A stretch of DNA of 21,415 nt from a virus (lineage: Duplodnaviria; Heunggongvirae; Uroviricota; Caudoviricetes): positions 1 to 21,415 of IMG/VR virus record IMGVR_UViG_2737471822_000004; one strand, written 5' to 3'. Position numbers and translations under genes: made by a program. The number at the start of each line of letters is the position of its first letter. The first letter of the stretch is position 1. The notes beneath the pieces are model-generated. The model did not search any database, was not told where the DNA came from, and saw nothing but the letters and a program-made list of their open reading frames with translations. Below are positions 1 to 15,598 of this stretch, piece by piece.

Positions 1-705
1 TTAATTGTCTCTGATGGTTTTGGAAAATAGATCGTTGACTTCAAAACCATACCTTACAACCAAGTCATATGCTCCAGATTCTATGTATGAGTTTTCAAAA
101 TCCTTTTTGCTGTTTTCTGTGTAACCTCCTATTCCTATTAAATAATCTTCCACCTCTTTTAATCTTGTCGATTTTTCTTTTCCAGTATTCAATAACTTGC
201 TATCGTCATCAAATTCTGCTTTATATTTTTCATGTAGTTTAGTTATAGAGGGGGATAAATTTTTAATTTTAAGAAGAATATTTTGTTGATCAGTGTCTCT
301 TAATTCCTTAATGTAAGGGTTGCTATAAAAAGTTTTTTCAAAGCAACTGGTTATATCTTTGTTTAAAAATGTTTTTAATTCCTTCATTCTTACATCATGT
401 GATTTTTTACTGTCATCTTCAGATGGTTGACGCATAAGTATTTCTGTTGGAGAACATTGGGAGATTGCATCAACAACATATTTTCTTGAATATTCCTTTC
501 TTAACTTTAAATATAGAGTTTTTTCTTTGTCTTGTAATTGTTTATATTCGATTTCTTTTTTTGCTATTGATTCCTGCAGATTTGCATTTTGGTATATCGG
601 AATTACTGTGTAAAATATTGTAAAGGTTGTCAAAAAAAACAATCCAACTTGGGCAATGTAACTTACTCTAATCAACCATAAATCAAATTTAGTATTAGTA
701 TTCAT
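1..705 (-). CDS. Hypothetical membrane-anchored coiled-coil protein, cargo gene B (234 aa), paralog of the upstream gene
   Basis: Complete ORF with stop at the window edge. N-terminal hydrophobic helix (IAQVGLFFLTTFTIFYTVIPIYQ) followed by a K/E-rich heptad-like region. N-terminal ~50 aa align with ORF 722..1570 (shared FYTV.PIYQ...E.IAKKE motif). Very AT-rich. No recognisable catalytic motif. Confidence 0.65.
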   Translation of the reverse strand: MNTNTKFDLWLIRVSYIAQVGLFFLTTFTIFYTVIPIYQNANLQESIAKKEIEYKQLQDKEKTLYLKLRKEYSRKYVVDAISQCSPTEILMRQPSEDDSKKSHDVRMKELKTFLNKDITSCFEKTFYSNPYIKELRDTDQQNILLKIKNLSPSITKLHEKYKAEFDDDSKLLNTGKEKSTRLKEVEDYLIGIGGYTENSKKDFENSYIESGAYDLVVRYGFEVNDLFSKTIRDN

Positions 706-721: not shown

Positions 722-1570
722 TTAGTCTAAATGTTGAATGTCTTTTAAGAAATCCATGGCGCGGATTCTTGATTGACCATTTATCAGGAAAATATAAGAT
801 GATAGTTCTCTTTCTGCAGTGTTATTTTTCATTATTTCGTTTTCATTTTTGCGTAACTTAGTTGACTCTATAGTTTTTATCAGACTATTAATTTTTTCAT
901 CAAAACCGATAGGTTTTTTTGTTAATGAAATCTTATTTTTTTCAATAGCGCGACGGATCTTTGCTAGAATTTTGTTGCGGATATTTTCAGGGACATTTTC
1001 TGAACTTGAGATAAAGTTATGATTGCCATTTTTTAATGCTTCATTAATTGCATCATAAGGAGATATATATAAATTACTAGGAGTATTATAGGCTGTTTTG
1101 GCGTCACCCAGTGTATTGTTCACAAAATCTGTGCTCTTAGAAATATAAACTACTCCAACTAGCCCCGAAAAATTCTCCCAGAAAACAGATTCAAGATTCT
1201 TGTTGTTTGCATTGACCGCTCTTTTGGAAATGGTCTTTTGTTTATTTAGTTCATTTAAAGTTTTTCTTAGTTCAGAATTTATTGAATTTAATTTTTCTTC
1301 TGATTCTTTGTATTGTAAATCAAGTTTGGCAATGCTTCCCTCCAATTCTTTTCGTAAGATTTTATTATTCTCTATAAATTTTTGGGAGTTTTCCATTGCT
1401 GTTTTTAATTTATTTAATTCAACTTCTTTTTTTGCAATTTCTTCTGATAAAAGTTCCTTTTGGTAAATTGGTCTTACTGTATAAAAATATCCAAAAATAG
1501 CAAATGCCACCAATACAAACTGTGATACATGGCTAACTCGGCTCAAAAAAACATCAACTTTATTTGACAT
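722..1570 (-). CDS. Hypothetical membrane-anchored coiled-coil protein, cargo gene A (282 aa)
   Basis: N-terminal TM helix (FVLVAFAIFGYFYTVRPIYQ) then a long coiled-coil-like segment. Start aligns with the paralog start. GAGG 5 nt upstream of ATG. 16-nt spacing to the downstream gene suggests an operon. Confidence 0.65.
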   Translation of the reverse strand: MSNKVDVFLSRVSHVSQFVLVAFAIFGYFYTVRPIYQKELLSEEIAKKEVELNKLKTAMENSQKFIENNKILRKELEGSIAKLDLQYKESEEKLNSINSELRKTLNELNKQKTISKRAVNANNKNLESVFWENFSGLVGVVYISKSTDFVNNTLGDAKTAYNTPSNLYISPYDAINEALKNGNHNFISSSENVPENIRNKILAKIRRAIEKNKISLTKKPIGFDEKINSLIKTIESTKLRKNENEIMKNNTAERELSSYIFLINGQSRIRAMDFLKDIQHLD

Positions 1571-3624: not shown

Positions 3625-3658
3625 GACTTCTCCTGTCGGGTTGGTTCGTTACGTCAAT

Positions 3659-3714
3659 TGTGTCGTGGCTGACACAAGCACACTATCGGTGATCAGTGTG
3701 TGGTGGCTGGCACA
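3659..3714 (-). promoter_or_regulatory. Late promoter region with two TGT-N12-ACA dyads (Ogr/Delta-type activator binding sites)
   Basis: TGTgtcgtggctgacACA at 3659-3676 and TGTgtggtggctggcACA at 3697-3714, centres 38 bp apart, about 45 and 80 nt upstream of the sid ATG. Confidence 0.6.
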
Positions 3715-3802
3715 ACGGGCGCTTGCGGTTATTCAGACGTGGCTATGAAAGCCAGCCAGATAAAAATGCCCTCTGTTTCAGTCTGCTTTATGTCCCTGAT
3801 GC

Positions 3803-3991
3803 GGTGGAACAGGTGAAACATGTGTTACTGCTTTGTTTTATAAAGTATTTATATACACTGCACCGGTGGAACATCGCGGGTAACAAGGTGGAACAGCGGA
3901 TTGGCTGGCGTTACATCTGTTCCACCTCACTATTTCAGAAGGTGAAACAGGTTCAGCCCTTGTAAAATACGGTTGTTCCACCTGTTTCACC
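3803..3991. repeat. Iteron cluster: 8 copies of 9-mer GGTG(G/A)AACA in both orientations, candidate alpha-binding origin/crr
   Basis: Copies at 3803, 3812, 3866, 3887, 3941 (forward) and 3919, 3974, 3983 (inverted, TGTT(C/T)CACC). Outer pairs form an 18-bp inverted repeat. Located between the alpha stop and the sid promoter. Confidence 0.7.
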
Positions 3992-4025: not shown

Positions 4026-6698
4026 TTAACCCGGCACCTCGCTGTTGAAGACATAGAGCCTGCGGGGATTCATCTCTGGCGGGCGAATGGTTGTCTGGAG
4101 TTTGCCATCAGTGGAGGGCAGCAGGTATCCACGATCTGCGCACAGACGCGCCACCTTGCGCGGGTCAAATCCCCTGCAGATTTCTTTCCAGCCGGACGGC
4201 ATGACATAGAACGTAGTGACAGCTTCCGTGCCCTGCGCGGTACTGCCTTTCTCCACCCTTCGCCAGCCCACCATATTGCCGGGGCGGTTGCGCTCGTCAT
4301 ACCAGTCTGCAAAGCGGCTGTACTGATTCGCGGTAAAGAAACTGCGAACCTGCTCCAGTGCGGCGATATCTTCCTGATTGGCGGTGTGCCCGCGATCTTT
4401 CAGCCATGCGTTCAGGCAGACGCGGGTTGCCCGCAGTGCTTCACCCTCAGGCCAGCCGGTGATACCCAGACGGGTTGCCAGTTCACCTGCCATCGCCACC
4501 AGTGCAAAGCGGTTCACAGCCCGGCCCACTTGATTGCCTGCATCTTTCGGAGTCAGGGCGGCAGCATATTCCTTCATCAGCGATTTTGCCTGTGCCGTTA
4601 GTCCGTTAAGATCAGCGGTCAGTGCTTTCAGCCACTCCCGGAACGGCGAACCGTAGTAGCAGGACGTGGCCCATTCAAGATGCTCTGCCAGAGCCTTGCC
4701 GCTGTCGAAGCCGTGCAGCTCCTCAAAAACGCCAAACTTCCCGGAATCGCTGGGGATCTGGATCATCCTGACTTCCATCCCGGCAAAAGTACGCTCACCG
4801 GCCTTTGCCGCATGTTCGGTCAGAGACAACTCGCCAGTTGAAAAGAACAACAGGCGCCACTGCTTACGGGTACGCAGCTCACCGTCCGTACCGGCACGGC
4901 CCTTGCCTTGACCGTTTGCCAGCATGTAGGCGATATTGCCTGCCTCGCGTCCGTCAACTTCCCGGATCTCATCAAGCATCATGGCGGCATCGTTGCGGCG
5001 GCTGGCGCATCCCTCCAGCGCGTTGCCGGTGGCCCGCCATGTCTGCCAGTAGTCAGGCCCGCCGCAGACGGAGGTTGCTGCTTTCATGGTGGTGGTCTTA
5101 CCGTCTGTCGATTCCCCTTTGAGGTGGTAGCCGCCGCCGTCCATACCAACCAGCCGTAACAGTGGTGCAGCAAAGGCCAGGCTGACAGCAAATGCCACGC
5201 GGGAGTTGCCGGTACAGTAGCGGGATACATGCTCCCGCCATTCCTCTGTTGTGCCCGACACGCGGAAATCACGCCCCTGCACGGAAGTGGTCTGGAGAAT
5301 GACACCCTCTGCACCTTCACCGCTGACCTCATCCTGCAGGACGTAAACCTGACCATGCCAGCCAGTACGACTGACGCAGGTCACGCGGCGTTCCGGTTTA
5401 CACAGTGAGATATATTCCATCAGGCGTGCGCGTGCCTCACCGGTGGTGCTGATATAAGACAGCCCGTTAACCAGCAGTACCCGGCGCAGTTCCTCACCAC
5501 TGCCGCTCAGCATTTCCATCGGCATCGCCCAGCGGCGACACTCACCCCACGTATCTTCCCATTCCAGCAGTCGTCCGAAGTTACCGCCATCGGCATCGCA
5601 GGTGATTGCCGTCACGCGCAGCGGGCTGCATATTTTGACGTTCTGGATCTCCGTCTCACCGTTGCGCTGTACCTGCTTTTCATACCAGAGATATTCCTGG
5701 GTAAGACGGAACCCGTGCGGCAGTTGCGTGCGGCTTTCCCCGCACAGTACCAGACCGTTGCGAAAGGCTTCACGGGCACGGGTAATACCGTGCTCCCGAT
5801 GAAAGTCATTCCAGTCAGCCTTAATCTCTCCTGGTGGCAGCGTCATCCAGCCGCCAACAGCTTTTGCCGCCCGTTCAGCAAAGGCTCTGCCGGGATTCTC
5901 ACCCCCGTCCTGAAAATCGTTATCACCGGCGATGATAATTTTTACCTCAGGCCAGCGTGCCCGCAGCGACTGCGCCACATTGGGCAGGTTGCCCGCAGAT
6001 ATGGCAGCCACTACGCATCCGGCAGTGAGCTGGCTTACCGTCAGCGCCGTAGCGTAACCTTCGGTAATCACCACCTGTATCGGTGGTTCAGACGGTAACG
6101 GGCTGAGCGACACAAACGCGCCTTTCATCGTGCTGCCGGGCAGTATGCTTTTTTCACCCGTCGGGGCGATAAGCTGTGCACCGGTCACGGCTCCGGTGTT
6201 GGTCGTGAGTGGTAACAGCAGGGAACCGGCAGGAAAATCCTTACCGCTGATATGCTGTACGCTTCCGGTCAGAGAGGCCGGGTATCCGGCGAACCCTTTT
6301 CCTGTCAGATAGGCGCTTTCTCCCGTGTGGCTCTCTTTCATCAGCGCCGCCACGGTAAGACCCATGTCGCGTTTAGGGGCTTTTTGTCTGGCAGGCTTAA
6401 CAGGCAGTTCCTGCATATCCGGCACATTAAGCACCTGCGCCACCTCCTGCGCAGCCTTTCTGACGCTGTAACCGGTTACGAGCTTAACCAGATCCAGACC
6501 GTCACCATTGCCACACTGGCTGCAGATCCACGTCCCGCGCCCGTCAAGGTCATCAAGGCGAAAACGATCCTTGCCCCCACATTTCGGGCAGGGACCGTGC
6601 CTGCCGTTTTCAGGTACATCAATACGCAGCATCTGCAGAATAACGGGCCATTTCCCCCGTGCGGCGGCTGAAACCTGCGTAACCGTCTGTATTGTCAT
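4026..6698 (-). CDS. alpha: Alpha-type primase-helicase (890 aa)
   Basis: N-terminal zinc-binding CPKCGG...CSQCG, TOPRIM-like EGYATAL / AGDND acidic motifs, C-terminal Walker A GESTDGKTT. Start overlaps the upstream ORF stop (ATGA). Confidence 0.9.
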   Translation of the reverse strand: MTIQTVTQVSAAARGKWPVILQMLRIDVPENGRHGPCPKCGGKDRFRLDDLDGRGTWICSQCGNGDGLDLVKLVTGYSVRKAAQEVAQVLNVPDMQELPVKPARQKAPKRDMGLTVAALMKESHTGESAYLTGKGFAGYPASLTGSVQHISGKDFPAGSLLLPLTTNTGAVTGAQLIAPTGEKSILPGSTMKGAFVSLSPLPSEPPIQVVITEGYATALTVSQLTAGCVVAAISAGNLPNVAQSLRARWPEVKIIIAGDNDFQDGGENPGRAFAERAAKAVGGWMTLPPGEIKADWNDFHREHGITRAREAFRNGLVLCGESRTQLPHGFRLTQEYLWYEKQVQRNGETEIQNVKICSPLRVTAITCDADGGNFGRLLEWEDTWGECRRWAMPMEMLSGSGEELRRVLLVNGLSYISTTGEARARLMEYISLCKPERRVTCVSRTGWHGQVYVLQDEVSGEGAEGVILQTTSVQGRDFRVSGTTEEWREHVSRYCTGNSRVAFAVSLAFAAPLLRLVGMDGGGYHLKGESTDGKTTTMKAATSVCGGPDYWQTWRATGNALEGCASRRNDAAMMLDEIREVDGREAGNIAYMLANGQGKGRAGTDGELRTRKQWRLLFFSTGELSLTEHAAKAGERTFAGMEVRMIQIPSDSGKFGVFEELHGFDSGKALAEHLEWATSCYYGSPFREWLKALTADLNGLTAQAKSLMKEYAAALTPKDAGNQVGRAVNRFALVAMAGELATRLGITGWPEGEALRATRVCLNAWLKDRGHTANQEDIAALEQVRSFFTANQYSRFADWYDERNRPGNMVGWRRVEKGSTAQGTEAVTTFYVMPSGWKEICRGFDPRKVARLCADRGYLLPSTDGKLQTTIRPPEMNPRRLYVFNSEVPG

Positions 6699-7078
6699 AC
6701 TTCCCCCTCATACAACGTCACACCGGTACTGCAGAAGTCATCAAAGGCCGCCGGAAGCGTGCGGTACATCTCCGCCATCACTTCACAGCCGCGCGCGGTC
6801 AGTACCGGCGGCGCGGTCAGCAGTGACGGCTCCAGCATGTCAGTCAGCAGTGCCAGCGCGGCAGCGGCGCCCTGCACTTCGCCGTACTCGTTAATCAGTA
6901 CGCACTCGATATGCAGCGCAATGGCCATTTCAATACGCTCCACTGTCAGGCTGTGCGGACCATACTGATCACTGCCAGTTTCGTTCAGCATTTTCTGCCG
7001 CCATGCTGAAGCAATAGCCCGCCGGTAAAGCGCGGTGGTCATTTCTACCGGGAAAATGGAAACCTGCGGCTGGTTCAT
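6695..7078 (-). CDS. Hypothetical protein (127 aa), immediately upstream of alpha
   Basis: ORF with ATGA stop/start overlaps on both sides. Position is analogous to the small genes preceding alpha in P4 (orf151/epsilon region). No motif recognised. Confidence 0.55.
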   Translation of the reverse strand: MNQPQVSIFPVEMTTALYRRAIASAWRQKMLNETGSDQYGPHSLTVERIEMAIALHIECVLINEYGEVQGAAAALALLTDMLEPSLLTAPPVLTARGCEVMAEMYRTLPAAFDDFCSTGVTLYEGEV

Positions 7079-7359
7079 CTGGCACCTCCTTCAATCAGTG
7101 CGCAGCTGTGTGCAATATCCGTCAAATCTGCCAGCAGGTACTCCATCAGCGCGGCGACACCAGGCGCACAGCCTGCGTCCAGTGCTCCGGCCTGAGACGG
7201 GTATTCAGAAAAGAGAAGCTGGAGCATGTCGCAGGCATTTCTTGCGCGGGTCAGCTTTCCGAAACTGTCCTCTGACAACCCATAGGCAAAAGCACCGGTA
7301 TTGTGTTTTTCAGGCAAAGTGTGGCCCTGAGCACCGTTGAGCCCGTTTGAAATATTCAT
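7075..7359 (-). CDS. Hypothetical protein (94 aa)
   Basis: GGAG 10 nt upstream of ATG. Stop overlaps the next start. Epsilon-like by position and size only. Confidence 0.5.
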   Translation of the reverse strand: MNISNGLNGAQGHTLPEKHNTGAFAYGLSEDSFGKLTRARNACDMLQLLFSEYPSQAGALDAGCAPGVAALMEYLLADLTDIAHSCALIEGGAR

Positions 7360-7390
7360 CGTGAATTACTCCGTTTTCAGCGGTATTTTG

Positions 7391-7750
7391 TCAGAGAAAC
7401 TTTGAATAGTGACCGTCGTCAGGCTCAGCAGAACGCCGTATGGTACGCTCCCGCCAGCGGATAAATAGCACAGACGGATGCAGTGTCAGCGGGCCGGAAC
7501 CACTACTGCCTGCAGGAGCTGGTGCAGGCTTAAAGAGCGGTACATCAAACAGGCGCGTATACCGCTGTTCAAACCATGCCAGAGGGCAGGAAGAAAGCTG
7601 GTTGTCGCTGTCATGACGTATCAGCACTTCACAGCTGAATTCAGGATTAACCAGCGCCACAGAGGGCGAGGCTTCTATTAATCGGATAATCGTGACCGTC
7701 CAGCCACGTTCATGCTGCCAGCGTTCGCCGGGGTGCGGATAATTACGCAT
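7391..7750 (-). CDS. Hypothetical protein (119 aa from the RBS-supported ATG; the ORF extends to 7780)
   Basis: GGAGGTG 5 nt upstream of the ATG at 7750. Overlaps the end of the upstream small ORF by 8 nt. Confidence 0.5.
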   Translation of the reverse strand: MRNYPHPGERWQHERGWTVTIIRLIEASPSVALVNPEFSCEVLIRHDSDNQLSSCPLAWFEQRYTRLFDVPLFKPAPAPAGSSGSGPLTLHPSVLFIRWRERTIRRSAEPDDGHYSKFL

Positions 7751-7919
7751 GTTCACCTCCGCAGGGAATGCGCCCGGCAAAGCTCAGTACATAGTCCGGG
7801 GCAAGTCTGCGCCGCGCTGATCGTTCGTTATCTGCGGTGATCCTTAACATCACAGGACGGGCATTGCGTTGACTGCGGTTGATCGCCGCAAATAACCAGG
7901 TACACTTCTGTTTAGCCAT
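7743..7919 (-). CDS. Hypothetical small protein (58 aa), first gene of the replication operon
   Basis: GAGGT 8 nt upstream of the ATG at 7919. The longer 76-aa ORF lacks an RBS at its first ATG. Confidence 0.4.
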   Translation of the reverse strand: MAKQKCTWLFAAINRSQRNARPVMLRITADNERSARRRLAPDYVLSFAGRIPCGGEHA

Positions 7920-8003
7920 CTTCGTTACCTCATATAACGTGCTGGTCAGACGCCTCGGTGCTGCTGCAAACACTCCGGGGCGTTGCTATTTTGTTTTTCT
8001 GTG

Positions 8004-8047
8004 TGTAATGTGTCATTACACATAAATACATTACAATGGGTGTAATT
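8004..8047. promoter_or_regulatory. Divergent promoter/operator region with GTAATG-type palindromes
   Basis: TGTAATG-tgt-CATTACA perfect palindrome at 8004-8020, further CATTACA (8029-8035) and TGTAATT (8041-8047) half-sites overlapping the start of the plus-strand regulator gene. Confidence 0.45.
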
Positions 8048-8230
8048 GACGTGTCAACACACAAAAATGAAAGACGTGGGAATCCGCCATTCCAGTTCCG
8101 ACTTGACCCTGAACTGCGTGAACTGATGGAACAAGCACAACAGCAGGATGGCGATGAATCGCTAGCGGCTTGGATCAAGCGCATTCTACGCAAAGAGTTA
8201 CAAAGCCGAGGTTTAGAACCAAAGAATTGA
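8036..8230 (+). CDS. Small ribbon-helix-helix-like transcriptional regulator (64 aa), the only plus-strand gene in the satellite
   Basis: PFQFRLDPELRELMEQ... fits the beta-strand then helix pattern of Arc/CopG/ParD-type RHH proteins. Divergent from the replication operon. No clear SD at the first ATG; the GTG at 8051 is an alternative start. Confidence 0.5.
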   Translation: MGVIDVSTHKNERRGNPPFQFRLDPELRELMEQAQQQDGDESLAAWIKRILRKELQSRGLEPKN

Positions 8231-8240
8231 TTAATACGTT

Positions 8241-8263
8241 GGGGAGGCTTTTTTCTCCCCAGC
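8241..8263. terminator. Hairpin between the converging RHH gene and alpA (possible bidirectional terminator)
   Basis: GGGGAG / CTCCCC stem with a T-rich loop. No strong U-tract on either side, so function is uncertain. Confidence 0.3.
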
Positions 8264-8279
8264 TTTGTTAATATTGTCA

Positions 8280-8495
8280 TTACACTACTTCCTCCAATCC
8301 TGCTGATTGAGCTTTAACCCACTGCCTAATTTCTTGTGCATCGTAAACAGATACCCGTTTTGAAATGCGTATAGATTTGGGAAATTCAGGATTGTTCTTT
8401 TCCCAGCGCCAGAGAGTAACCGTACTTATTTGCAAAAAGTCAGCAGTAGCTCGTGGGCGGGCATGTCCAGTGATAGGATAAGTTTTTAATGTCAT
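8280..8495 (-). CDS. alpA: AlpA-family HTH regulator (71 aa)
   Basis: FLQISTVTLWRWEKNNPEFPKSIRISKRVSVYDAQEIRQWV matches the AlpA/Xis-type winged-helix pattern. Typical position between the integrase and the primase operon. Confidence 0.8.
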   Translation of the reverse strand: MTLKTYPITGHARPRATADFLQISTVTLWRWEKNNPEFPKSIRISKRVSVYDAQEIRQWVKAQSAGLEEVV

Positions 8496-8503
8496 GAAAT
8501 TAC

Positions 8504-8531
8504 CTGCCGTATTATGTAATGAACACGGCAG
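8504..8531 (-). promoter_or_regulatory. Stem-loop in the alpA 5' leader
   Basis: 7-bp stem CTGCCGT / ACGGCAG with a 14-nt loop that contains a GTAATG motif, ending 8 nt upstream of the alpA ATG. Confidence 0.3.
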
Positions 8532-8773
8532 ATACTATGGGGATATCAAAATGCTGTGAAGGTAGTGTAATCAACTCTACCTGTAGATTGTTTCAGTCTA
8601 CCCCTTTTGTTTTAATCCCGCATGATTAACCGCTAATCGTAATTTTCTTAAGATTTCTTGTTCATTAGTGATAAATATTGGAGGTAGCTCTCCTAAATGT
8701 TTAATTATGGCGTTAGTCCACTTTTCAGGACTTATCTCTTTTCTTTCACCACGACATTCGCTTGGGTATTTTG

Positions 8774-9481
8774 CTAATATATATATATGGCTGCATTTAA
8801 TAACCCCTCCCTATTTTTTGCATGATGCTCAGCAGTGTTATTTAATCGCTTGGGGATTTTAGGTTCAGATGAAATTCTTTTCGTAAGTAAACTTGGCATA
8901 GGAATTCCAGTTTTTACTGATTTCCATATTAACTCTAAATCTCTTCGCATGATAAGAAGATCTTCAAATGGAATCTCAATGACCTTATTTCCTTCATATG
9001 AGGCCGTTGCCATCAAAACATTATCTCGTATTTTTACCGGTTTAAGCCTGAATTCATAATCTGGATCTATAGCTAATCCATTTTTTATGTCACTTATCAT
9101 ATCATCGGCGTACCAAATACCACAGGCAAATCCTATAATTTGAAGCCCATTTTCAAAATGTTCAAAGGAATCATCTTTAAGGTCATACCATATTGTTGAA
9201 AATTCCATCTCTAGTGATTGATTAGTTAATACGGGATGAATTAAGTCAATTTCCATTTTCTGATTTTTATTGAGGAAATTAACATTAAATCTAACTGCAA
9301 GTCCATCCGCCTTGAATGCGATATTAAAAGCGCCTATTTCGTATAGATGTAATAAATCATCAATCTCGCATTCTAATAGTCTTGAAGCGCGTTCAAATGA
9401 ACAATATTCTAATGGTGGTATTTTTTTGTCAATCCATAGATTTCCTAAGAATATAGTTTCATTCTCTGTTGAATGCTGCAT
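8774..9481 (-). CDS. Hypothetical protein (235 aa), AT-rich cargo gene between integrase and alpA
   Basis: Long ORF with GAGG 7 nt upstream of ATG, 30 nt downstream of the integrase stop. Lower GC than neighbours. No motif recognised. Confidence 0.6.
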   Translation of the reverse strand: MQHSTENETIFLGNLWIDKKIPPLEYCSFERASRLLECEIDDLLHLYEIGAFNIAFKADGLAVRFNVNFLNKNQKMEIDLIHPVLTNQSLEMEFSTIWYDLKDDSFEHFENGLQIIGFACGIWYADDMISDIKNGLAIDPDYEFRLKPVKIRDNVLMATASYEGNKVIEIPFEDLLIMRRDLELIWKSVKTGIPMPSLLTKRISSEPKIPKRLNNTAEHHAKNREGLLNAAIYIY

Positions 9482-9511: not shown

Positions 9512-10846
9512 TTAATTGATAATGTTAATACCTGATAAGTCATAAGGAGCATGGAATTCGTCCTTATTTAGTTCCAGATAATTAGACCACCATTGCATCA
9601 TTCTGCGGCGTTCCTGCATGTGCTGCGCAAGATGCACATATGCTGCCCGCACTTCGTTTCTTTCTTGGTGACTCATCTGCCGTTCAACTGCATCGCGTGA
9701 CCAGAGTCCTGATTCGGTCAGTGCAGAGCAGGCCATCGCCCTGAACCCATGCAAGCAAACATCAGTTTGAGTGTCGTAACCCATCGTTCGCAGTGCTTTA
9801 TTAACTGTGTTTTCGCTCATCGGTTTATATGGGTTGCTGTCACCGGGAAAAACCAGCAGATATTCACCACTGATTTTCCTTATATCCTCCAGTACCCCGA
9901 TAGCCTGACTAGATAGCGGGACATAATGAGCAGCCCCCATCTTTGCACCCCGATCTGAGAATTTAACCCCTGCGATCTCTTCACGTTGTCCTGGTATCGT
10001 CCATAGCCCATTTTCAATGTCGATCTCCTCCCATCTGGCATGTCGTAGTTCGCTGGATCGCACAAAAGTGTGCAGGGAAAAGAGAACTGCTAGGCGAGTC
10101 AATGGTCTTCCCGTGTAACTTCTCGTTTTCGCTAACAGTTCAGGTAAACGTTCGAGAGGTAGTGCGGGGCGATGTCGTACTTTGGGGGCCGTAATTGCAC
10201 CTTTTAGATCGTGGGCAGGGTTGTAATCGACAATTCCACGTTGCACGGCATAACGGAAGATGCTCGTCATAGTGGTTTTTACACGGCTCGTTGTGGCACC
10301 AATTCCTTTCTCAGTCATCTCAACCAGCATCGGCATCAAGTCACGGGTTTTGAGCGTATCGATAGGCTTTGAACCGATGGCAGGAAAGAGGTGGTTTTCC
10401 ATTTCTCGGAGAATTTTTTTACGGGTGATCTCTTTCCACTCAGGATGCCCCATCGTTCCACTATGCCACTCTCTGGCAACACTCTCGAACGTGGGGGAAA
10501 TTGGGTCTTCCTTTTTGGGTTTCTTTGCTTCGCGAGGATCACGACCATCGGCTAGTAGTTGCCTGGCTTCATCACGCCGTTTCCGCGCTGTTGCAAGTGA
10601 GACATCTGGGTAGACCCCTAATGCTAATGTCACTTGTTTTCCATCAAAACGATAATTCATACGCCAGTATTTTCCACCAGTCTTTCGTACCAGTAGATAC
10701 AAACTCCCTCCATCGGTAAGTTTGTAATCATTGGTCTTCGGCTTGGCGTTTTCTATCTGTTTGGGGGAAAGCACATTAATGGCCATATCTGTACTCATTT
10801 TGGTAAATTGATGGTATCTGCATATCGAACTGGGGAATACCATCAC
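9512..10846 (-). CDS. Tyrosine recombinase, P4-family integrase (int1); probable true start at 10786 or 10798
   Basis: N-terminal arm-binding domain (KLTDGGSLYLLVRKTGGKYWRMNYRF...VTLALGVYPDVSLATARKRRDEAR) and C-terminal catalytic region (HGFRA...RAAYVH...RRRMMQWW). The canonical N-terminus begins at MAINVLSPK. Confidence 0.9.
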   Translation of the reverse strand: MMVFPSSICRYHQFTKMSTDMAINVLSPKQIENAKPKTNDYKLTDGGSLYLLVRKTGGKYWRMNYRFDGKQVTLALGVYPDVSLATARKRRDEARQLLADGRDPREAKKPKKEDPISPTFESVAREWHSGTMGHPEWKEITRKKILREMENHLFPAIGSKPIDTLKTRDLMPMLVEMTEKGIGATTSRVKTTMTSIFRYAVQRGIVDYNPAHDLKGAITAPKVRHRPALPLERLPELLAKTRSYTGRPLTRLAVLFSLHTFVRSSELRHARWEEIDIENGLWTIPGQREEIAGVKFSDRGAKMGAAHYVPLSSQAIGVLEDIRKISGEYLLVFPGDSNPYKPMSENTVNKALRTMGYDTQTDVCLHGFRAMACSALTESGLWSRDAVERQMSHQERNEVRAAYVHLAQHMQERRRMMQWWSNYLELNKDEFHAPYDLSGINIIN

Positions 10847-11057: not shown

Positions 11058-11258
11058 TTACCCATTCGCGCGGCTTAAGAGCTTATTTTTGAATTCACAA
11101 TGGTCACGATATAACCATCTTGCTCGTCCGTGGATAACTTTGGCTTTAGGCAGGTCGCCGGACTTAATCCGGTCATAGATGAAGGTTTTACCAAAGCCAG
11201 TATCAGCCATGATGAATTTCAAATCAACCAGTGAATCAGGTTGTAGTTCGTGTTGCAT
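11058..11258 (-). CDS. torI: TorI-like excisionase / recombination directionality factor (66 aa, AlpA/Xis-type winged helix)
   Basis: 66-aa protein MQHELQPDSLVDLKFIMADTGFGKTFIYDRIKSGDLPKAKVIHGRARW... with an HTH_17-like pattern. I recall this as the E. coli KplE1 TorI sequence. GGAGA upstream of ATG. Lies at the prophage end opposite the IntS-like integrase. Confidence 0.65.
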   Translation of the reverse strand: MQHELQPDSLVDLKFIMADTGFGKTFIYDRIKSGDLPKAKVIHGRARWLYRDHCEFKNKLLSRANG

Positions 11259-11300
11259 GAGTGCTATCTCCGAATAGGGAATCGAACCTGCAAATCAGGC

Positions 11301-11323
11301 AATAAAAAACCGCATTGATGCGG
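11301..11323 (-). terminator. Rho-independent terminator at the end of the early operon
   Basis: Minus-strand hairpin CCGCA-ucaa-UGCGG followed by UUUUUUAUU, between the 114-aa gene and the torI-like gene. Confidence 0.6.
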
Positions 11324-11382
11324 CAATGGTAGGTCTGGATATCTTGAGAAATGAACGGGCCTCATCGAGTGTGAGGCTGTGG

Positions 11383-11727
11383 TTAGTCCTTGCGTAACTC
11401 GCTAATTCTTCTGTAAGTCTCTGGTGCTTTGTTTCCGTGTATCTTCATTTCAGACTTCAACAGAGCAACGAGAGAATCCCATTCGTTGAGGATGCCTTTG
11501 AATGCCGGAACGCGCTTTGCAACCTTGTCGAATGAATCCCTGATTTCTGGAATCTGCTCGACAAGCGCAACGCATCGCCGGAAGTCGGCTACGTCATGTG
11601 GAGCGCCGAAGTGATGACCATAGATATTCTTTTTCAGTCCACATGCGATTGAGGCAAGAGTTGCGCTACTGATGCCAACATCGCCAGTCGATTGCCATTT
11701 CAAAACCTTCATAGCCAAATCTGACAT
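11383..11727 (-). CDS. Hypothetical prophage protein (114 aa)
   Basis: ORF co-oriented with the early operon. No motif recognised. Confidence 0.5.
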   Translation of the reverse strand: MSDLAMKVLKWQSTGDVGISSATLASIACGLKKNIYGHHFGAPHDVADFRRCVALVEQIPEIRDSFDKVAKRVPAFKGILNEWDSLVALLKSEMKIHGNKAPETYRRISELRKD

Positions 11728-11799
11728 TTCTTGTCTCCATAAAACAAAACTCGCCGTAGCGAGTTCAGATAAAAGAAATCCCCGCGAGTGCGAGGATTG

Positions 11800-12084
11800 T
11801 TATTCATTGCCGATATTCACCTTTATCGCGAACACCTTTACCGGTTTATCGCCGAAGTGCGGATGTGTGATTGTCTTGATTTCATATCCGTCATACGGGA
11901 CGTCAATTCTGCGGCTGGAATCGTCGCGCTTCGGATATCCCTTTGTGATAATCAGGCGGTCATGCTTACGGTTAACGAGGCGCTTTTTCCAGTAGTCATT
12001 ACACAAGCGATACTCTTCCGTTTTCTCCCCGCGAATCATGGCATCGAAGTATTCACCTTTGACGGCAAGTTGCAGGTTAGCCAT
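11800..12084 (-). CDS. ASCH/DUF3850-like small protein (94 aa from the ATG at 12084)
   Basis: MANLQLAVKGEYFDAMIRGEKTEEYR resembles the N-terminal pattern of ASCH/DUF3850 proteins. GGAGGTG 7 nt upstream. TAATG stop/start overlap with the upstream gene. Confidence 0.55.
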   Translation of the reverse strand: MANLQLAVKGEYFDAMIRGEKTEEYRLCNDYWKKRLVNRKHDRLIITKGYPKRDDSSRRIDVPYDGYEIKTITHPHFGDKPVKVFAIKVNIGNE

Positions 12085-12344
12085 TACCGCACCTCCAGTT
12101 TCCATACCGCCTGACCAATCCGGCTGGCATAGGTATCTTTGGATACTGCTCCGTCTTTAGCCAGCTCCATAAGAATTTTGCGCAAATCTGCCGAACGCCA
12201 TTCTTCATCAGGAAATTCCTTCTCCATTGCCAACCGCAGATTCCAGGTTGCTATCGTGAATGGATATTCCCCGCCGAGAGCTTTCTCTTGCAGGGCAGAA
12301 CGGGAACGCATCACCTGCAAAACCTTCTCTTTTACATCCATCAT
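12084..12344 (-). CDS. Hypothetical prophage protein (86 aa)
   Basis: ORF translationally coupled to both neighbours (4-nt overlap with the DUF551 gene, 1-nt overlap with the ASCH-like gene). Confidence 0.5.
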   Translation of the reverse strand: MMDVKEKVLQVMRSRSALQEKALGGEYPFTIATWNLRLAMEKEFPDEEWRSADLRKILMELAKDGAVSKDTYASRIGQAVWKLEVR

Positions 12345-13342
12345 TTTGCCTCCTGCGGCGGTTCTGGTAGTGGCATCCAGTGTGTGACATTGCTAATCAG
12401 ACCATATTCATTAGTTTGAGGATGGTTGCCGTTATCGTCTCCGTATTTAAGACTCTCCATAAAACCATAATGCTTATTCCCATTAACGCTCACAAAGCCG
12501 TAATAAGCAGGTATAACGCCGATCTCACACGTAACCAGCAAAGGAAAACCAGTTCTCCAGTTTAGTTCACCGATTTCAGGCATTCGATCACTACAGCTTA
12601 TCCAACTATCCGGAGTTACCGGAGAGTTGCCCGATAGCGCGTTCTGCAGTCGCTCCAGCTTCACGTATTCCTGAACCCTGTTTCCGTCGCATGCCTGAAG
12701 CCATTGCGCAGCCTTTTGCGCATCAGTGTGAAAGGCACAAGTGCGACCGTCATCAAATTGCATTTCGTAGAGGTCAGCAACTTGTTCAAACTGCGTGTGT
12801 TGTGACTTGTAAGTTTGGCTTACAGGTTCGGCTTCCAGTTCTGCTATGCGCTTCTCTGTGGATTCCAGCGCTGCAACCAATTCGTCTACAGTTCCGGCAG
12901 CTTGCAGTGCGTAATCGGTAATAGCCATCTCATGATCAATTTCAGTACCGTTCTCATTCGTTGAGGTGATAGCAAAATAATCAGAGTCGATTTCGTTATC
13001 AGCTAAGTGGCGTAGCGTATCGGCAACAAGCTGGCCGTTTTCGATTAGCAGCCTCCCAACCGTAAGCGCAATATCCTCGTTCTCCTGGTCGCGGCGTTTT
13101 ATGTATTGCTGGTTTCTTTCCCGTTCATCCAGCAGCGCCAGCACGGTTTCTGGTCCGGTCAGAAATTTGAAGGCGTTGAGCGCATCAATATCCACACCGT
13201 AATCTTTAAGTTCCTGTTCACTTAACAAATCATCATCAGCTGGCAACATTAACAGGCGTTCCATTGCTGGAATTGCACGTTCCGCCGCCTCACGCAGTGC
13301 CTGGTAATTAATTTCGCTCACTGGTTGCCTCCTTTGCGCCAC
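12341..13342 (-). CDS. DUF551-domain phage protein (333 aa), Ea22-like early-region protein
   Basis: C-terminal [10 protein letters not shown]...LLVTCE...YYGF...[12 protein letters not shown] matches the DUF551 pattern common in lambdoid early-left operons. Acidic N-terminal region. Confidence 0.65.
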
Positions 13343-13501
13343 ATCGCATTCAGATATTTGTTTTGATTCACTGATGGAAAAGAATTTCTCTTAAGCAATT
13401 CCTCTCTCGATGGCATTGGCTTTACGCGTTGGCGAATAATCATTTCCGCCGGAAGAATTCCGGGATTGTATGCAAGTCCTCTCATGGTAAATTCCTCTTT
13501 G

Positions 13502-13816
13502 TTAATTTATTCGTATGCCTGTTCTCTCTTCATCGAGTTTTTTTAGCTTGTATCGCATAGCTCTTACTGAATAAATTGAGCGGCAGGTTGCAATTGCTAT
13601 TTCTTCTGCGGAGAACTTACCGAAAAGTGATACTTCGGCTCTTGTCCATCGTCTTCCACGAAGTCGGCTAACAATGTCAGCGCCAATCCTTGTTGCTTTC
13701 GCCATTACTGCTTTTTCAGTCCTTTCCAGTTTTTCAGCGATAACTTCAACTGGCATTGTCGCCGCCACTTCGCGCAAGAAATCGACTTCCCATTTCTCCC
13801 ATGGAGTCTTTTTCAT
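13502..13816 (-). CDS. Hypothetical prophage protein (104 aa)
   Basis: ORF in operon context. Basic C-terminus. No firm family. Confidence 0.45.
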
Positions 13817-13827
13817 AGGCGATACCG

Positions 13828-14316
13828 TTATTTGATAAGAAGTGAAGGTTTCCCAACTTTGAGTTGAGCGCCGGGGATATTTATTCCTGCTTTTAGTTGG
13901 TGCTTGATTGCCAACTTGTCGGCTTTAATTGTCGTTTCGAACTCAACGTATTCAGGAGGAAGGGCGCTTGAGTCGATGATTTCTACAATTTCTGACGGTT
14001 TGCGGATTGTTACCTGGTGAATACCTGCTCGAATATTTTTCTTGCCAACCATTTCAAGCGATGACGCTATATATGATTTGATGCTGTCAATCTTATTTTG
14101 AATTACTGCGGCTCGCTCATTCAGTGACTTTGCCTCTTCCTTGAGGCGTTCAGCATAAGCAGATTCATTTTTAATGACGGAAAGAAGTTGCTCTATTTTA
14201 TCGGTAAATTCTCCTTCCATGCCTTCTATTGTGTCAGCAATCATCTCTGGTTCTAAATCTGAATCCATCAATTTTGCGTATTCATTGGCAATTTCATACA
14301 GTTTGCTCACTGGCAA
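13828..14316 (-). CDS. Sipho_Gp157-like protein (162 aa), frequent partner of RecT/Erf recombinases
   Basis: Coiled-coil N-terminus and C-terminal ...IKADKLAIKHQLKAGINIPGAQL... pattern. Start overlaps the 3' end of recT. Confidence 0.5.
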   Translation of the reverse strand: MPVSKLYEIANEYAKLMDSDLEPEMIADTIEGMEGEFTDKIEQLLSVIKNESAYAERLKEEAKSLNERAAVIQNKIDSIKSYIASSLEMVGKKNIRAGIHQVTIRKPSEIVEIIDSSALPPEYVEFETTIKADKLAIKHQLKAGINIPGAQLKVGKPSLLIK

Positions 14317-15205: not shown

Positions 15206-15513
15206 GCTGCTTCTCCAAAAATGTGTCTGCGCTTGAATATTGCGAAGGCATATTCAGCCTTAACTCTTTCGGTTATTGCATCCCAGAACCATTCAGCGGC
15301 TTTTTCCTGATAGTTACAGTCATCATCTTCCAGCCAGTCGATAGCGTCCTTAGTGTGTTCATCTGGTTTATATGAGCGAAGCATTTCGCTTATTGGGTCG
15401 CAACGTTTGCAGAGGCGATCAACTTCACTGTTGATTCGTTCGTAATCTTCATCAGTAAAACTTGCGATTATTTGCGATATTTCACGCTTATCATTCAGAG
15501 TCAGAATCATCAT
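15202..15513 (-). CDS. Hypothetical prophage protein (103 aa)
   Basis: ORF with 4-nt overlap to recT. Acidic. No motif recognised. Confidence 0.5.
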   Translation of the reverse strand: MMILTLNDKREISQIIASFTDEDYERINSEVDRLCKRCDPISEMLRSYKPDEHTKDAIDWLEDDDCNYQEKAAEWFWDAITERVKAEYAFAIFKRRHIFGEAA

Positions 15514-15598
15514 CTTTCTCCTGTTCTTTGTGCTGATTGAGCATTTTGTTCATCTGACGAATGAATTCTTCGTCTGACCAGTTATCCGTAAAACTCAT
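15491..15598 (-). CDS. Possible small ORF (35 aa, acidic C-terminus)
   Basis: Below the ORF-track cutoff. Its ATG overlaps the stop of the upstream 56-aa ORF (ATGA) and its 3' end overlaps the 103-aa start. Supported only by coupling geometry. Confidence 0.25.
   Translation of the reverse strand: MSFTDNWSDEEFIRQMNKMLNQHKEQEKDDDSDSE

What the first reader, a model, noticed from the sequence alone, without database searches (positions are those of the whole stretch)
6695..7919. Four translationally coupled small ORFs form a leader cassette ahead of alpha
ORFs of 58, 119, 94 and 127 aa are chained to alpha by overlapping stop/start codons and strong SD sequences, which supports real genes. None carries a motif I recognise. 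In P4 the equivalent position holds epsilon (helper derepression), kil and orf151, so these may be helper-manipulation or host-takeover factors specific to this satellite lineage.
Basis: inference. Interest (0 to 1): 0.4.

Follow-up and report, generated by a model that had tools for sequence, protein, structure and literature searches.

The report
P4-type early operon, diverged copy
The four small ORFs are real, conserved genes, but they are diverged counterparts of known satellite phage P4 early genes (kil, orf151, an epsilon-related small protein, cnr) that sit ahead of the primase gene, not a lineage-specific invention.

Summary
All four ORFs exist on the minus strand at the stated coordinates, each with a GGAG/GAGG ribosome-binding site. 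Three of the four junctions overlap (ATGCGTAA, ATGA, ATGA). The 119-to-94 junction is a 31-nt spacer. dN/dS of 0.07-0.28 and conserved synteny across Enterobacterales genera show they are coding.

They are not orphans:
- 58 aa: Icd-like, 54% identical to the Kil-containing C-terminus of P4 Eta.
- 119 aa: remote homologue of P4 ORF151 (N-domain plus C-terminal tail).
- 127 aa: DUF5375, 40% identical to P4 Cnr.
- 94 aa: long member of the uncharacterised ~75-aa family found just upstream of cnr in most P4-like satellites but absent from P4 (hhalign 94%). It has a tentative link to epsilon (80%).

The cassette is therefore the promoter-proximal part of a P4-type early/replication operon in an integrated P4-like satellite (int, alpA, alpha, iteron origin, sid/psu/delta).

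This lineage lacks epsilon proper and the C4/CI immunity RNA. Instead it has a divergent RHH gene and a covarying, strand-asymmetric terminator hairpin that points to a ~85-nt cis-antisense RNA over the first ORF's start site.

The cassette is an ordinary known kind. The regulatory variant and the 94/75-aa family are moderately interesting.

The parts
7743..7919 (-). ORF1, 58 aa: Icd-like / Kil-like small protein, first translated gene of the operon
   Evidence: NCBIfam NF033153 Icd-like, E 5.5e-24, 84 bits against cut-off 25. 54% identity to residues 86-131 of the P4 'cI ORF137' (the Eta reading frame, whose C-terminal part is Kil). dN/dS 0.07. The ATG at 7919, not the GTG at 7973, is supported by the conserved ATGGCTA plus SD in 12 lineages and by RefSeq.
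7391..7750 (-). ORF2, 119 aa: remote homologue of P4 ORF151. Tudor/SH3-like beta-barrel N-domain (residues 1-66) plus a disordered tail ending in a conserved motif
   Evidence: hhalign against P4 ORF151: 78.7%, E 1.7e-5. Class-against-class: 79%, E 1.5e-5, with a reversed control at 0.2%. Shared C-terminal tail WR[ED]...PD[DN]x[HY]..[FY]L. Iterated profiles of the two families converge on the same 23 ORFs. AF2 N-domain pLDDT 73-91. Fold hits to DUF1653/DUF4222 phage proteins, E 1e-4 to 1e-2. dN/dS 0.12-0.28.
7075..7359 (-). ORF3, 94 aa: disordered N-terminus plus helical hairpin. Long-form member of the uncharacterised ~75-aa family that precedes cnr in most P4-like satellites. Tentative distant relative of P4 epsilon
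   Evidence: AF2: pLDDT 70, helices 30-52 and 65-92. The family is small and found only in enterobacterial records among the named hits. hhalign against the 75-aa family: 93.8%, E 1.7e-7, 73 columns. Against the epsilon family: 80.2%, E 1.4e-5, 55 columns. Controls are <=1.5%. Same position immediately upstream of cnr, with ATGA coupling. The window protein gives no Pfam hit. Two distant members hit PF25738 below threshold. dN/dS 0.12-0.18.
6695..7078 (-). ORF4, 127 aa: Cnr (P4 ORF106) homologue, DUF5375
   Evidence: PF17345, 50 bits against cut-off 30. 40% identity to P4 ORF106, E 9e-17. Same PHROG 5991 as P4 ORF106. ATGA overlap with alpha. dN/dS 0.21.
4026..6698 (-). alpha: primase-helicase (Zn-ribbon + Toprim + DUF927), last gene of the chain
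   Evidence: Pfam hits. N-terminal ~320 aa are 38% identical to P4 alpha.
3803..3991 (.). Iteron cluster: candidate alpha-binding origin / crr analogue, where Cnr-alpha control would act
   Evidence: Eight exact copies of GGTGRAACA in both orientations, all within 190 bp. Expected 0.35 in the whole window, and 0/100 shuffles reach 8. The P4 type-1 ori repeat is TGTTCAC[CA], i.e. GGTGAACA.
7920..8057 (-). Operon control region and 5' leader: conserved -35-like TTGACA (8057-8052), palindromic operator-like repeats (8002-8010 / 8014-8022 TGTGTAATG/CATTACACA, and related TGTAAT half-sites to 8046), then an A-rich tract and hairpin
   Evidence: Inverted repeats. TTGACA is conserved in 7 of 8 lineages aligned (TTGCCA in the eighth), while the palindrome sequence differs by lineage. 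Promoter function is inferred only.
7879..7998 (+). Predicted cis-antisense RNA gene: promoter-like TTGATC (7879-7884), 16-nt spacer, TACACT (7901-7906); transcript about 7913-7998, complementary to the start codon and SD of ORF1; invariant TGGTCA (7943-7948); terminator hairpin (arms 7949-7958 / 7975-7983); T-tail (7985-7998)
   Evidence: Hairpin covariation: 91.7% of cells paired against 73.5% in shuffles (0/500), 8 of 12 pairs with double changes, covariation score 0.69 against 0.31, slid controls <=0.30. Strand asymmetry in 12 lineages: plus-strand RNA sum dG -259 against -192 kcal/mol, 29 G.U pairs against 6. Promoter hexamers conserved in 11 of 12 lineages, but they lie inside conserved codons. 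CM R1 finds 21 strong matches, all on the strand opposite alpha and, where checked, over the Icd-like start. No Rfam family matches. Transcription itself is not shown.
8036..8230 (+). Divergent 64-aa ribbon-helix-helix-type gene (YlcI/YnfO family, Arc-like): candidate repressor of the operon
   Evidence: NCBIfam NF041551, 20.7 bits, below its cut-off of 30. PHROG 228 Arc-like repressor, E 9e-6. RefSeq names it a YlcI/YnfO family protein. A small gene on the opposite strand occupies the same position in Pantoea, Citrobacter and other loci. The repressor role is inferred.
8280..8495 (-). AlpA/Vis-type HTH gene upstream of the operon
   Evidence: PF05930, 31.6 bits against cut-off 21.

Best explanation
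The four ORFs plus alpha form the early (replication, 'left') operon of an integrated P4-like satellite. It is a diverged, re-ordered copy of P4's kil/eta - epsilon - orf151 - cnr - alpha operon.

Gene order here is Kil/Icd-like (58 aa), ORF151-like (119 aa), a 94-aa helical protein of the widespread '75-aa' family, Cnr-like (127 aa), then the alpha primase-helicase.

Inferred mechanism:
- Transcription starts at a sigma-70-type promoter in the 7990-8060 intergenic region.
- That promoter overlaps palindromic operators and faces a divergent RHH gene.
- Ribosomes that initiate on the first ORF are handed down the chain through overlapping or closely spaced stop/start sites. This keeps the long mRNA translated, and so protected from Rho-dependent polarity as described for P4 kil/eta.
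- It also ties the output of Cnr to that of alpha.

Inferred functions by homology:
- The Icd/Kil-like protein blocks host cell division.
- Cnr restrains alpha-driven replication at the iteron origin downstream of alpha.
- The ORF151-like and 94-aa proteins have no demonstrated function. The 94-aa protein is the best candidate for a protein-binding helper or host modulator, because of a possible epsilon relationship.

Gating is probably by a cis-antisense RNA over the first ORF's ribosome-binding site, standing in for the C4/CI immunity RNA that this lineage lacks.

Shown: gene reality, homologies, synteny, hairpin covariation and strand asymmetry. Inferred: promoter, RNA expression, coupling, all biochemical functions.
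For: - ORFs, overlaps and SD sites.
- Coding constraint.
- RefSeq annotation and prevalence.
- P4 map for comparison.
- Icd-like. Kil as the truncated form of Eta: PMC10111431.
- Cnr. Cnr controls the copy number of P4's plasmid stage: PMC8628076.
- ORF151.
- 94-aa against the 75-aa family and against epsilon.
- The literature notes a 75-aa unknown protein between 'epsilon' and alpha in 61% of P4-likes, and cnr in 90%: PMC8628076.
- Satellite context (int, alpA, alpha, psu, sid-like, delta).
- Iteron origin.
- Absence of C4/isrK here, with a positive control in P4 and classic P4-likes.
- Antisense hairpin.
Against: - No expression or functional data of any kind.
- The ORF151 and epsilon links are profile-level only (about 80% hhalign probability from shallow alignments, Neff 1.5-2.9).
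- The 75-aa family itself does not match epsilon (1.5%).
- Four surveyed loci carry both epsilon and a 75-aa-type gene. So the 94-aa protein is at most a paralogue of epsilon, not its replacement.
- The gene order differs from P4.
- The alpha C-terminal part is DUF927-type, not P4's, so Cnr-alpha control may not transfer.
- A Citrobacter variant lacks cnr altogether, and a Pantoea variant has only a truncated Icd-like ORF. Neither is therefore indispensable.
- The antisense promoter hexamers lie in conserved codons, so their conservation may be due to the protein alone.
- One locus (L050) has both the antisense motif and C4.
Confidence: 0.8

Rival explanations
1. One reading: a lineage-specific cassette of novel helper-manipulation or host-takeover factors with no counterpart in P4.
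For: The 119-aa and 94-aa proteins have no curated family hit above threshold and are annotated 'hypothetical'. They evolve faster than alpha: 55-74% against 90-97% amino-acid identity. For the 94-aa gene, dS against Citrobacter (2.3) far exceeds that of alpha (0.33), so this gene looks like a swapped module.
Against: Two of the four have direct pairwise homologues in P4. The third has a profile-level match to ORF151 plus a shared C-terminal tail. The fourth belongs to a family found in most surveyed P4-like loci. One is the Cnr replication regulator.
Confidence: 0.08
2. The 94-aa protein (and the 75-aa family) is the functional epsilon of these satellites: an anti-repressor that binds the immunity repressor of a P2-like helper with a different immunity type. 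The remaining ORFs act as in P4.
For: hhalign of the 94-aa family against the epsilon family gives 80%, E 1.4e-5, over both helices, with controls <=1%. Two distant syntenic members hit PF25738 at 16.4 and 14.6 bits over the same region. This element class has no epsilon proper. The gene diverges fast and shows allele swapping.
Against: The window protein itself has no PF25738 hit and no pairwise similarity to P4 epsilon. The 75-aa family against epsilon gives 1.5%. L043, L052, L058 and L072 carry epsilon AND a 75-aa-type gene. A helical hairpin is a non-specific fold, and the fold search was uninformative.
Confidence: 0.25
3. ORF1 plus the antisense RNA is primarily a type I toxin-antitoxin (addiction or abortive) module that stabilises the island. 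Its position ahead of the replication genes is incidental.
For: The family is named for P1 Icd, a host cell-division inhibitor, and Kil, carried in the homologous P4 Eta C-terminus, functions in cell killing. A conserved terminator and promoter-like pair is positioned to give an RNA complementary to its SD and start codon.
Against: ORF1 overlaps ORF2 by 8 nt and heads a five-gene chain, as kil/eta does in P4, where its translation controls read-through. There are no PADLOC hits. The Pantoea variant keeps the RNA motif but has only a truncated Icd-like ORF, which argues that the RNA gates the operon rather than one toxin.
Confidence: 0.15
4. The ORFs are chance open frames in a GC-rich leader and are not translated.
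For: None beyond their small size.
Against: dN/dS of 0.07-0.28, conserved lengths, starts and SD sites across genera, and family-level homologies.
Confidence: 0.01

Closest known systems
Satellite phage P4 left (early) operon: eta/kil - epsilon - orf151 - cnr (orf106) - alpha
   Same: Same operon logic and same strand relation to alpA/vis and int. There are homologues of Kil (Eta C-terminus), ORF151, Cnr and the alpha primase domain. Stop/start overlaps chain the genes together. An iteron origin with nearly the same repeat (GGTGRAACA against GGTGAACA) lies downstream of alpha.
   Different: There is no epsilon proper, no Ash/Eta N-terminal part, and no C4/CI or isrK RNA. The ORF151-like gene comes second. 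An extra 94-aa gene precedes cnr; P4 has a 135-nt gap there. The alpha helicase part is DUF927-type. A divergent RHH gene sits between alpA and the operon.
The '75-aa protein of unknown function' of P4-like satellites (Moura de Sousa & Rocha 2021, PMC8628076)
   Same: Same position immediately upstream of cnr with ATGA coupling. Profile-profile match of 93.8% over 73 columns. Same two-helix pattern with a conserved Cys near the C-terminus.
   Different: The window protein is 94 aa, with an extra disordered ~25-residue N-terminus carrying a conserved AQG..LP motif. Sequence identity is too low for pairwise detection.
P1 immI region (c4 RNA - icd - ant)
   Same: An Icd-family small protein is the first translated gene of an operon controlled by a small RNA acting on its translation start (NF033153 hit; P1 organisation from established knowledge).
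   Different: No C4-family RNA is present. The predicted regulator is a cis-antisense RNA from the opposite strand. Replication genes, not an antirepressor gene, follow.
P22 immI (mnt / arc-ant with the sar antisense RNA)
   Same: By analogy only: a divergent Arc/Mnt-type RHH gene facing the operon, plus a short antisense RNA ending at an intrinsic terminator and overlapping a ribosome-binding site (P22 organisation from my own knowledge).
   Different: No sequence relationship was tested or claimed. The genes controlled are different.
Gram-negative PICIs (int - alpA - pri/rep)
   Same: Integrase, AlpA-type regulator and a primase-helicase in the same order.
   Different: This element carries psu, a sid-position Psu-like gene and an Ogr/Delta gene. 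These are the P4-type capsid-hijacking and late-control module, so it is P4-like, not a PICI.

Membership tests
P4-like satellite (marker set of Moura de Sousa & Rocha 2021 / SatelliteFinder) | Tyrosine integrase | tested here: met
   9512-10846 is 52% identical to P4 Int. RefSeq annotates a tyrosine-type recombinase.
P4-like satellite (marker set of Moura de Sousa & Rocha 2021 / SatelliteFinder) | Psu (PF07455), Sid-position Psu-like gene, Delta (PF04606) | tested here: met
   Psu 152.9 bits; the 247-aa Psu-like protein 37.7 bits; Ogr_Delta 58.2 bits. The custom Sid profile was not available.
P4-like satellite (marker set of Moura de Sousa & Rocha 2021 / SatelliteFinder) | AlpA (PF05930) | tested here: met
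   31.6 bits against cut-off 21.
P4-like satellite (marker set of Moura de Sousa & Rocha 2021 / SatelliteFinder) | 'epsilon' marker as used in that work (PF10554 Phage_ASH, i.e. the Eta N-terminal part) | tested here: not met
   No Pfam hit on the 58-aa protein. Only the Icd-like C-terminal part is present. The element would therefore score as a variant lacking this marker.
P4-like satellite (marker set of Moura de Sousa & Rocha 2021 / SatelliteFinder) | alpha marker PF03288 | tested here: not met
   Alpha has Zn_Ribbon_Prim, Toprim_3 and DUF927 but no PF03288 hit. The primase domain is nevertheless 38% identical to P4 alpha.
Icd-like host cell division inhibitor (NF033153) | Score above the curated cut-off over the whole 48-position domain | tested here: met
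   84 bits against 25, profile positions 1-47 of 48.
Icd-like host cell division inhibitor (NF033153) | Inhibits cell division or kills on expression | not testable with these tools
   Needs an expression experiment.
Cnr / DUF5375 (PF17345) | Score above the gathering threshold, and homology to P4 ORF106 | tested here: met
   50 bits against 30. 40% identity, E 9e-17. Same PHROG.
Cnr / DUF5375 (PF17345) | Negative control of alpha-dependent replication | not testable with these tools
   Only context is available: the gene is ATGA-coupled to alpha, and an iteron origin lies nearby.
P4 epsilon / Derepression protein family (PF25738) | Score above the gathering threshold (27 bits) | tested here: not met
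   The window 94-aa protein has no hit at E<=0.1 and no BLASTP alignment to P4 epsilon. The best family members reach 16.4 and 14.6 bits.
P4 epsilon / Derepression protein family (PF25738) | Remote homology at profile level | tested here: inconclusive
   A6 against the epsilon alignment gives 80.2%, E 1.4e-5. The close-relatives-only profile gives 30%. The 75-aa family gives 1.5%.
P4 ORF151 family (PHROG 10748) | Detectable homology over the N-domain and the C-terminal tail | tested here: met
   hhalign 78.7% and 79% with a reversed control at 0.2%. Shared C-terminal motif. Iterated profiles converge. The two sit in different PHROGs (30862 against 10748), so the homology is remote.
DUF4222 (PF13973) | Score above the gathering threshold (27 bits) | tested here: not met
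   15.8 bits on residues 5-25 only. Fold-level similarity to DUF1653/DUF4222 phage proteins.
C4 antisense RNA / P4 CI immunity RNA (RF01695) with isrK (RF01394) | Covariance-model hit upstream of the kil/icd-like ORF | tested here: not met
   No hit in the window at gathering threshold or at E<=10. P4 and four classic P4-like loci score 75-84 bits.

The most novel reading that the evidence does not exclude
This satellite lineage replaced both P4 trademark devices. In place of the C4/CI immunity RNA, it gates its early operon with an undescribed ~85-nt cis-antisense RNA (plus an RHH repressor) acting on the Kil/Icd-like start site. In place of epsilon, the 94-aa protein acts as the helper-derepression factor. 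If so, the uncharacterised 75-aa family present in most P4-like satellites would share this role, tuned to different helper repressors.
Probability: 0.15. Interest if true: 0.65.

Novelty: new variant of a known kind. Interest (0 to 1): 0.35.

Why it matters
P4 is the textbook phage satellite, yet it is atypical of its own family. Most relatives carry a small gene next to cnr that P4 lacks, and that gene has no known function.

This locus shows a second architecture, present in about 6% of complete E. coli genomes. It keeps Kil-, ORF151- and Cnr-type genes, carries a long form of that unknown gene, lacks epsilon and the CI RNA, and appears to use a cis-antisense RNA and an RHH protein instead.

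If confirmed, this would show how satellite immunity and helper activation can be rewired while the replication core stays fixed. It also gives two concrete, cheap targets for experiments: the 94/75-aa protein and the antisense RNA. As a finding about 'four small ORFs' alone, it is ordinary.

Tried and rejected
- Rfam on the whole window (gathering threshold) and on 7600-8800 (E<=10): no C4, isrK or other credible family. A traJ_5 hit (21 bits against 50) is chance.
- Pairwise BLASTP of the 94-aa protein against P4 epsilon: nothing.
- hhalign of the 94-aa family against ORF151, and of the 119-aa family against epsilon: nothing.
- Foldseek of the 94-aa model against BFVD: only non-specific helical hits, E>0.3.
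- Foldseek of the 119-aa model against PDB: Tudor/SH3-like barrels only (SAWADEE, DUF1653 3be3, UvrD Tudor, CarD, Mfd), all E>0.03. This is too weak to infer RNA-polymerase binding.
- PDB sequence searches for all four proteins: nothing.
- PADLOC for the four proteins and neighbouring unknowns: nothing.
- tblastn of the 94-aa protein against the phage collection: nothing. blastn of the region against phages gave only a 69-bp patch.
- Strict mutual exclusion of the antisense motif and C4 was rejected, because L050 has both.
- The idea that the 94-aa gene simply replaces epsilon was rejected, because four loci have both.
- The T[GA]ACCA motif as a leader-peptide stop codon was considered but not tested.
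- The primary P4 kil/eta paper (PMC94026) could not be read. Its content is cited second-hand from PMC10111431.

Full report
**Observation**

All relevant genes are on the minus strand. The ORF list and raw sequence show:
- 58 aa at 7743-7919
- 119 aa at 7391-7750
- 94 aa at 7075-7359
- 127 aa at 6695-7078
- the 890-aa alpha gene at 4026-6698

Reading the junctions directly:
- 58->119 overlaps by 8 nt (ATGCGTAA) behind GGAGGTG.
- 94->127 overlaps by ATGA, behind GGAGGTG.
- 127->alpha overlaps by ATGA, behind GAGGGGGAAG.
- 119->94 is not an overlap. It is a 31-nt spacer with GGAG.
- The first ORF has GAGGT 7 nt upstream of its ATG.

RefSeq annotates exactly these CDS in an identical locus of E. 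coli PD4: Icd-like, two hypotheticals, and DUF5375. The 1.4-kb block occurs at >=90% identity in 333 of 5426 complete E. coli genomes.

**Are they genes?**

I compared orthologous loci from Citrobacter (L004) and Pantoea (L005) using the Nei-Gojobori method.

| Gene | dN/dS |
|---|---|
| 58 aa | 0.07 |
| 119 aa | 0.12-0.28 |
| 94 aa | 0.12-0.18 |
| 127 aa | 0.21 |
| alpha | 0.05-0.06 |

All four are therefore under purifying selection, but they evolve faster than alpha.

Between the window and L004, dS of the 94-aa gene (2.3) far exceeds that of alpha (0.33). This part of the operon is mosaic.

The same five-gene chain is found in Yersinia, Rouxiella, Enterobacter, Shigella, Pantoea and metagenomic contigs.

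**What the element is**

The surrounding genes are:
- a P4-type integrase, 52% identical to P4 Int
- an AlpA-type HTH gene
- alpha, whose primase domain is 38% identical to P4 alpha
- Psu, a Psu-like gene in the sid position, and an Ogr/Delta gene

Downstream of alpha, eight exact GGTGRAACA repeats in both orientations cluster in 3803-3991. The expectation is 0.35 per window, and 0/100 shuffles reach 8. This is nearly the P4 type-1 ori/crr repeat TGTTCAC[CA].

This is an integrated P4-like satellite, not a PICI.

**The four proteins**

The P4 record gives the order vis - 'cI ORF137' (the Eta frame) - epsilon - orf151 - orf106/cnr - alpha.

1. **58 aa.** It matches NCBIfam NF033153 'host cell division inhibitor Icd-like' at 84 bits (cut-off 25). 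It is 54% identical to residues 86-131 of the P4 ORF137 translation. According to PMC10111431 (citing Forti et al. 1999, which I could not read), Kil is the truncated C-terminal form of Eta and functions in cell killing. Eta translation also prevents termination of the late-promoter transcript. The 58-aa ORF is thus the Kil-type part without the N-terminal Ash part (no PF10554 hit).

2. **127 aa.** It is DUF5375 (50 bits against 30), 40% identical to P4 ORF106 = Cnr (E 9e-17), and in the same PHROG. PMC8628076 states that cnr controls the copy number of P4's plasmid stage, and that the cnr family is present in 90% of P4-like elements.

3. **119 aa.**
   - Pairwise similarity to P4 ORF151 is weak (24%).
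   - hhalign gives 78.7% (E 1.7e-5). Class-against-class it gives 79%, with a reversed control at 0.2%.
   - The two families share an extreme C-terminal tail: RWRE..AEPDDxHYSKFL against KWRD..PDNSYRHYL.
   - Their iterated profiles converge on the same 23 ORFs.
   - AlphaFold gives a confident beta-rich N-domain (residues 1-66) and a disordered remainder.
   - The domain resembles DUF1653/DUF4222 phage proteins (E 1e-4 to 1e-2) and Tudor/SH3-like barrels in the PDB (E>0.03).
   - I accept remote homology to ORF151. Function is unknown for both.

4. **94 aa.**
   - It has no curated family. It sits in PHROG 14861, of unknown function.
   - The family is small: 24 clusters at 50% identity among 1.8 billion proteins. 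Where a source organism is named, it is enterobacterial.
   - AlphaFold predicts a disordered N-terminus and a two-helix hairpin (pLDDT 70).

**Survey of 80 alpha-bearing loci**

I surveyed the region upstream of alpha in these loci. It gave the key result for the 94-aa protein.

| Architecture | Gene order |
|---|---|
| Commonest P4-like | Eta (~183 aa) - 74-77-aa protein - Cnr - alpha, all ATGA-coupled |
| Window class | Icd-like - ORF151-like - 94 aa - Cnr - alpha |
| P4 and L068 | Eta - epsilon - ORF151 - Cnr - alpha |
| L043, L052, L058, L072 | Eta - epsilon - ORF151 - 75-aa type - Cnr - alpha |

The 74-77-aa protein is evidently the '75-aa protein of unknown function, in 61% of elements, absent from P4' of PMC8628076.

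Profile-profile results:

| Comparison | hhalign probability | E-value | Columns |
|---|---|---|---|
| 94-aa family vs 75-aa family | 93.8% | 1.7e-7 | 73 |
| 94-aa family vs epsilon family | 80.2% | 1.4e-5 | 55 |
| 75-aa family vs epsilon family | 1.5% | 0.033 | 53 |
| Reversed and unrelated-family controls | <=1.5% | - | - |

Two distant but syntenic 94-aa family members (P0196, P0198) hit Pfam PF25738 'Derepression protein' below threshold, at 16.4 and 14.6 bits against 27, over the same region.

My reading is that the 94-aa protein is the positional and sequence orthologue of the 75-aa family. A link to epsilon is possible but unproven. Because epsilon and 75-aa-type genes co-occur in four loci, they are paralogues at best.

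P4 and classic P4-like loci carry C4 (RF01695) and isrK RNAs inside or upstream of eta (75-84 bits). The window and its class have none. Instead:
- A 64-aa RHH-type gene (YlcI/YnfO family, Arc-like PHROG) is transcribed divergently from the operon.
- The intergenic region has a conserved TTGACA and palindromes whose sequence differs between lineages.
- A hairpin lies between these and the first ORF.

The hairpin covaries:
- 91.7% of cells are paired, against 73.5% in shuffles (0/500 reach the observed value).
- 8 of 12 pairs have compensatory double changes.
- The covariation score is 0.69 against 0.31; slid controls are <=0.30.

It is also strand-asymmetric. In all 12 lineages the RNA of the plus strand, antisense to the operon, folds better (sum -259 against -192 kcal/mol). 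It uses 29 G.U pairs against 6. A T-run follows it in most lineages (weak in L004).

It is therefore an intrinsic terminator for a plus-strand transcript.

A promoter-like TTGAT[CT]-16 nt-TA[CGA]ACT is conserved in 11 of 12 lineages inside codons 4-14 of ORF1. That conservation may be partly due to the protein. It would give an ~85-nt RNA complementary to ORF1's start codon and SD.

A covariance model finds the motif on the strand opposite alpha in 21 loci, over the Icd-like start wherever I checked the coordinates. These include three loci not used to build the model. One of them, L050, also has C4.

I infer a cis-antisense regulator of ORF1 translation. By coupling and Rho polarity it would regulate the whole operon, making it functionally analogous to P4 CI RNA. 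Expression is not shown.

**Mechanism, with status**

- Shown: the genes are real, chained, and homologous to the P4 early genes. An iteron origin lies next to alpha. C4 is absent. A strand-specific covarying terminator overlaps the operon leader.
- Inferred from P4/P1 knowledge: Kil/Icd-like inhibits cell division, Cnr limits alpha-driven replication, and translation of the first ORF protects the transcript.
- Speculative: the 94-aa protein binds a helper or host protein (an epsilon-like role), and the RHH protein is the repressor.

**Verdict**

The cassette is a diverged, re-ordered version of a known operon, so the finding as stated is ordinary.

The parts worth follow-up are the 94/75-aa family (abundant, uncharacterised, possibly epsilon-related) and the predicted antisense RNA plus RHH control that replaces the CI RNA in this sub-family.

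Novelty: new variant of a known kind. Interest: 0.35.

Noticed in passing
window 7879-7998 (+): Conserved, covarying, strand-asymmetric terminator hairpin with a promoter-like pair upstream. It predicts an ~85-nt cis-antisense RNA over the Icd-like start site. No Rfam family matches. It is found in 21 related loci by a purpose-built covariance model.
   Followed up: yes
window 7943-7948 (+), TGGTCA; TGGT[CT]A in all 12 lineages: An invariant hexamer immediately 5' of the terminator hairpin (T[GA]ACCA on the operon strand), unexplained. RNAalifold pairs it with the invariant GCCA opposite the start codon, but there is no covariation to test this.
   Followed up: partly
window 8002-8046: Operator-like palindromes built from TGTAAT half-sites between the divergent RHH gene and the operon. 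Other lineages have different palindromes at the same place (GGTGGCCACC, GGTACGTACC, GGTAATTACC), suggesting different immunity specificities.
   Followed up: partly
window 3803-3991: Eight exact GGTGRAACA iterons in both orientations between alpha and the sid-like gene, close to the P4 type-1 ori/crr repeat. Probably the alpha-binding origin.
   Followed up: yes
window 3657-3715: Two to three copies of TGTGTCGTGGCTGACACAA-like dyads (TGT-N12-ACA) upstream of the sid/psu/delta genes. From my own knowledge they resemble Ogr/Delta-activated late-promoter sites. Not tested.
   Followed up: no
window 11058-21415: Directly beyond the satellite integrase lies a lambdoid prophage segment: Ead/Ea22+DUF551, Gp157, RecT, an AT3+SGNH acyltransferase, and a second integrase at 20258-21415. 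In E. coli PD4 the same satellite abuts tRNA-Arg instead. The window contains no tRNA (ARAGORN and Rfam), which suggests tandem integration.
   Followed up: partly
window 1-705 and 722-1570 (-): Two genes of 234 and 282 aa, beyond the psu/delta end of the satellite (toward dsdC in E. coli PD4). In P4-likes the defence hotspot lies between psu and int. Neither has a Pfam or PADLOC hit.
   Followed up: partly
L003/L004/L019 (Citrobacter), 6583-7306: A variant of the same operon lacks the Cnr/DUF5375 gene altogether. The 101-aa homologue of the 94-aa protein overlaps alpha directly.
   Followed up: partly
L005 (Pantoea stewartii), 6898-7010: Here the Icd-like ORF is truncated to about 36 codons, yet the antisense RNA motif and the rest of the chain are retained.
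   Followed up: partly
L050 (Orbaceae), 5307-5397 (-) and 5611-5698 (+): One locus carries both the new antisense motif and a C4 RNA, so the two are not strictly alternative.
   Followed up: no
Literature (PMC8628076) against P4 record L002 7888-8584: The 'epsilon' marker used to define P4-like satellites in that work is PF10554 (Phage_ASH). That domain belongs to the Eta/'cI ORF137' gene, not to the epsilon derepression protein, which is PF25738. Published counts of 'epsilon' presence therefore refer to Eta.
   Followed up: partly
window 8774-9481 (-) (RefSeq extends the homologous CDS to 293 aa): A conserved gene of unknown function between int and alpA, with no family hit. It is present in the same position in all related loci examined.
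   Followed up: no
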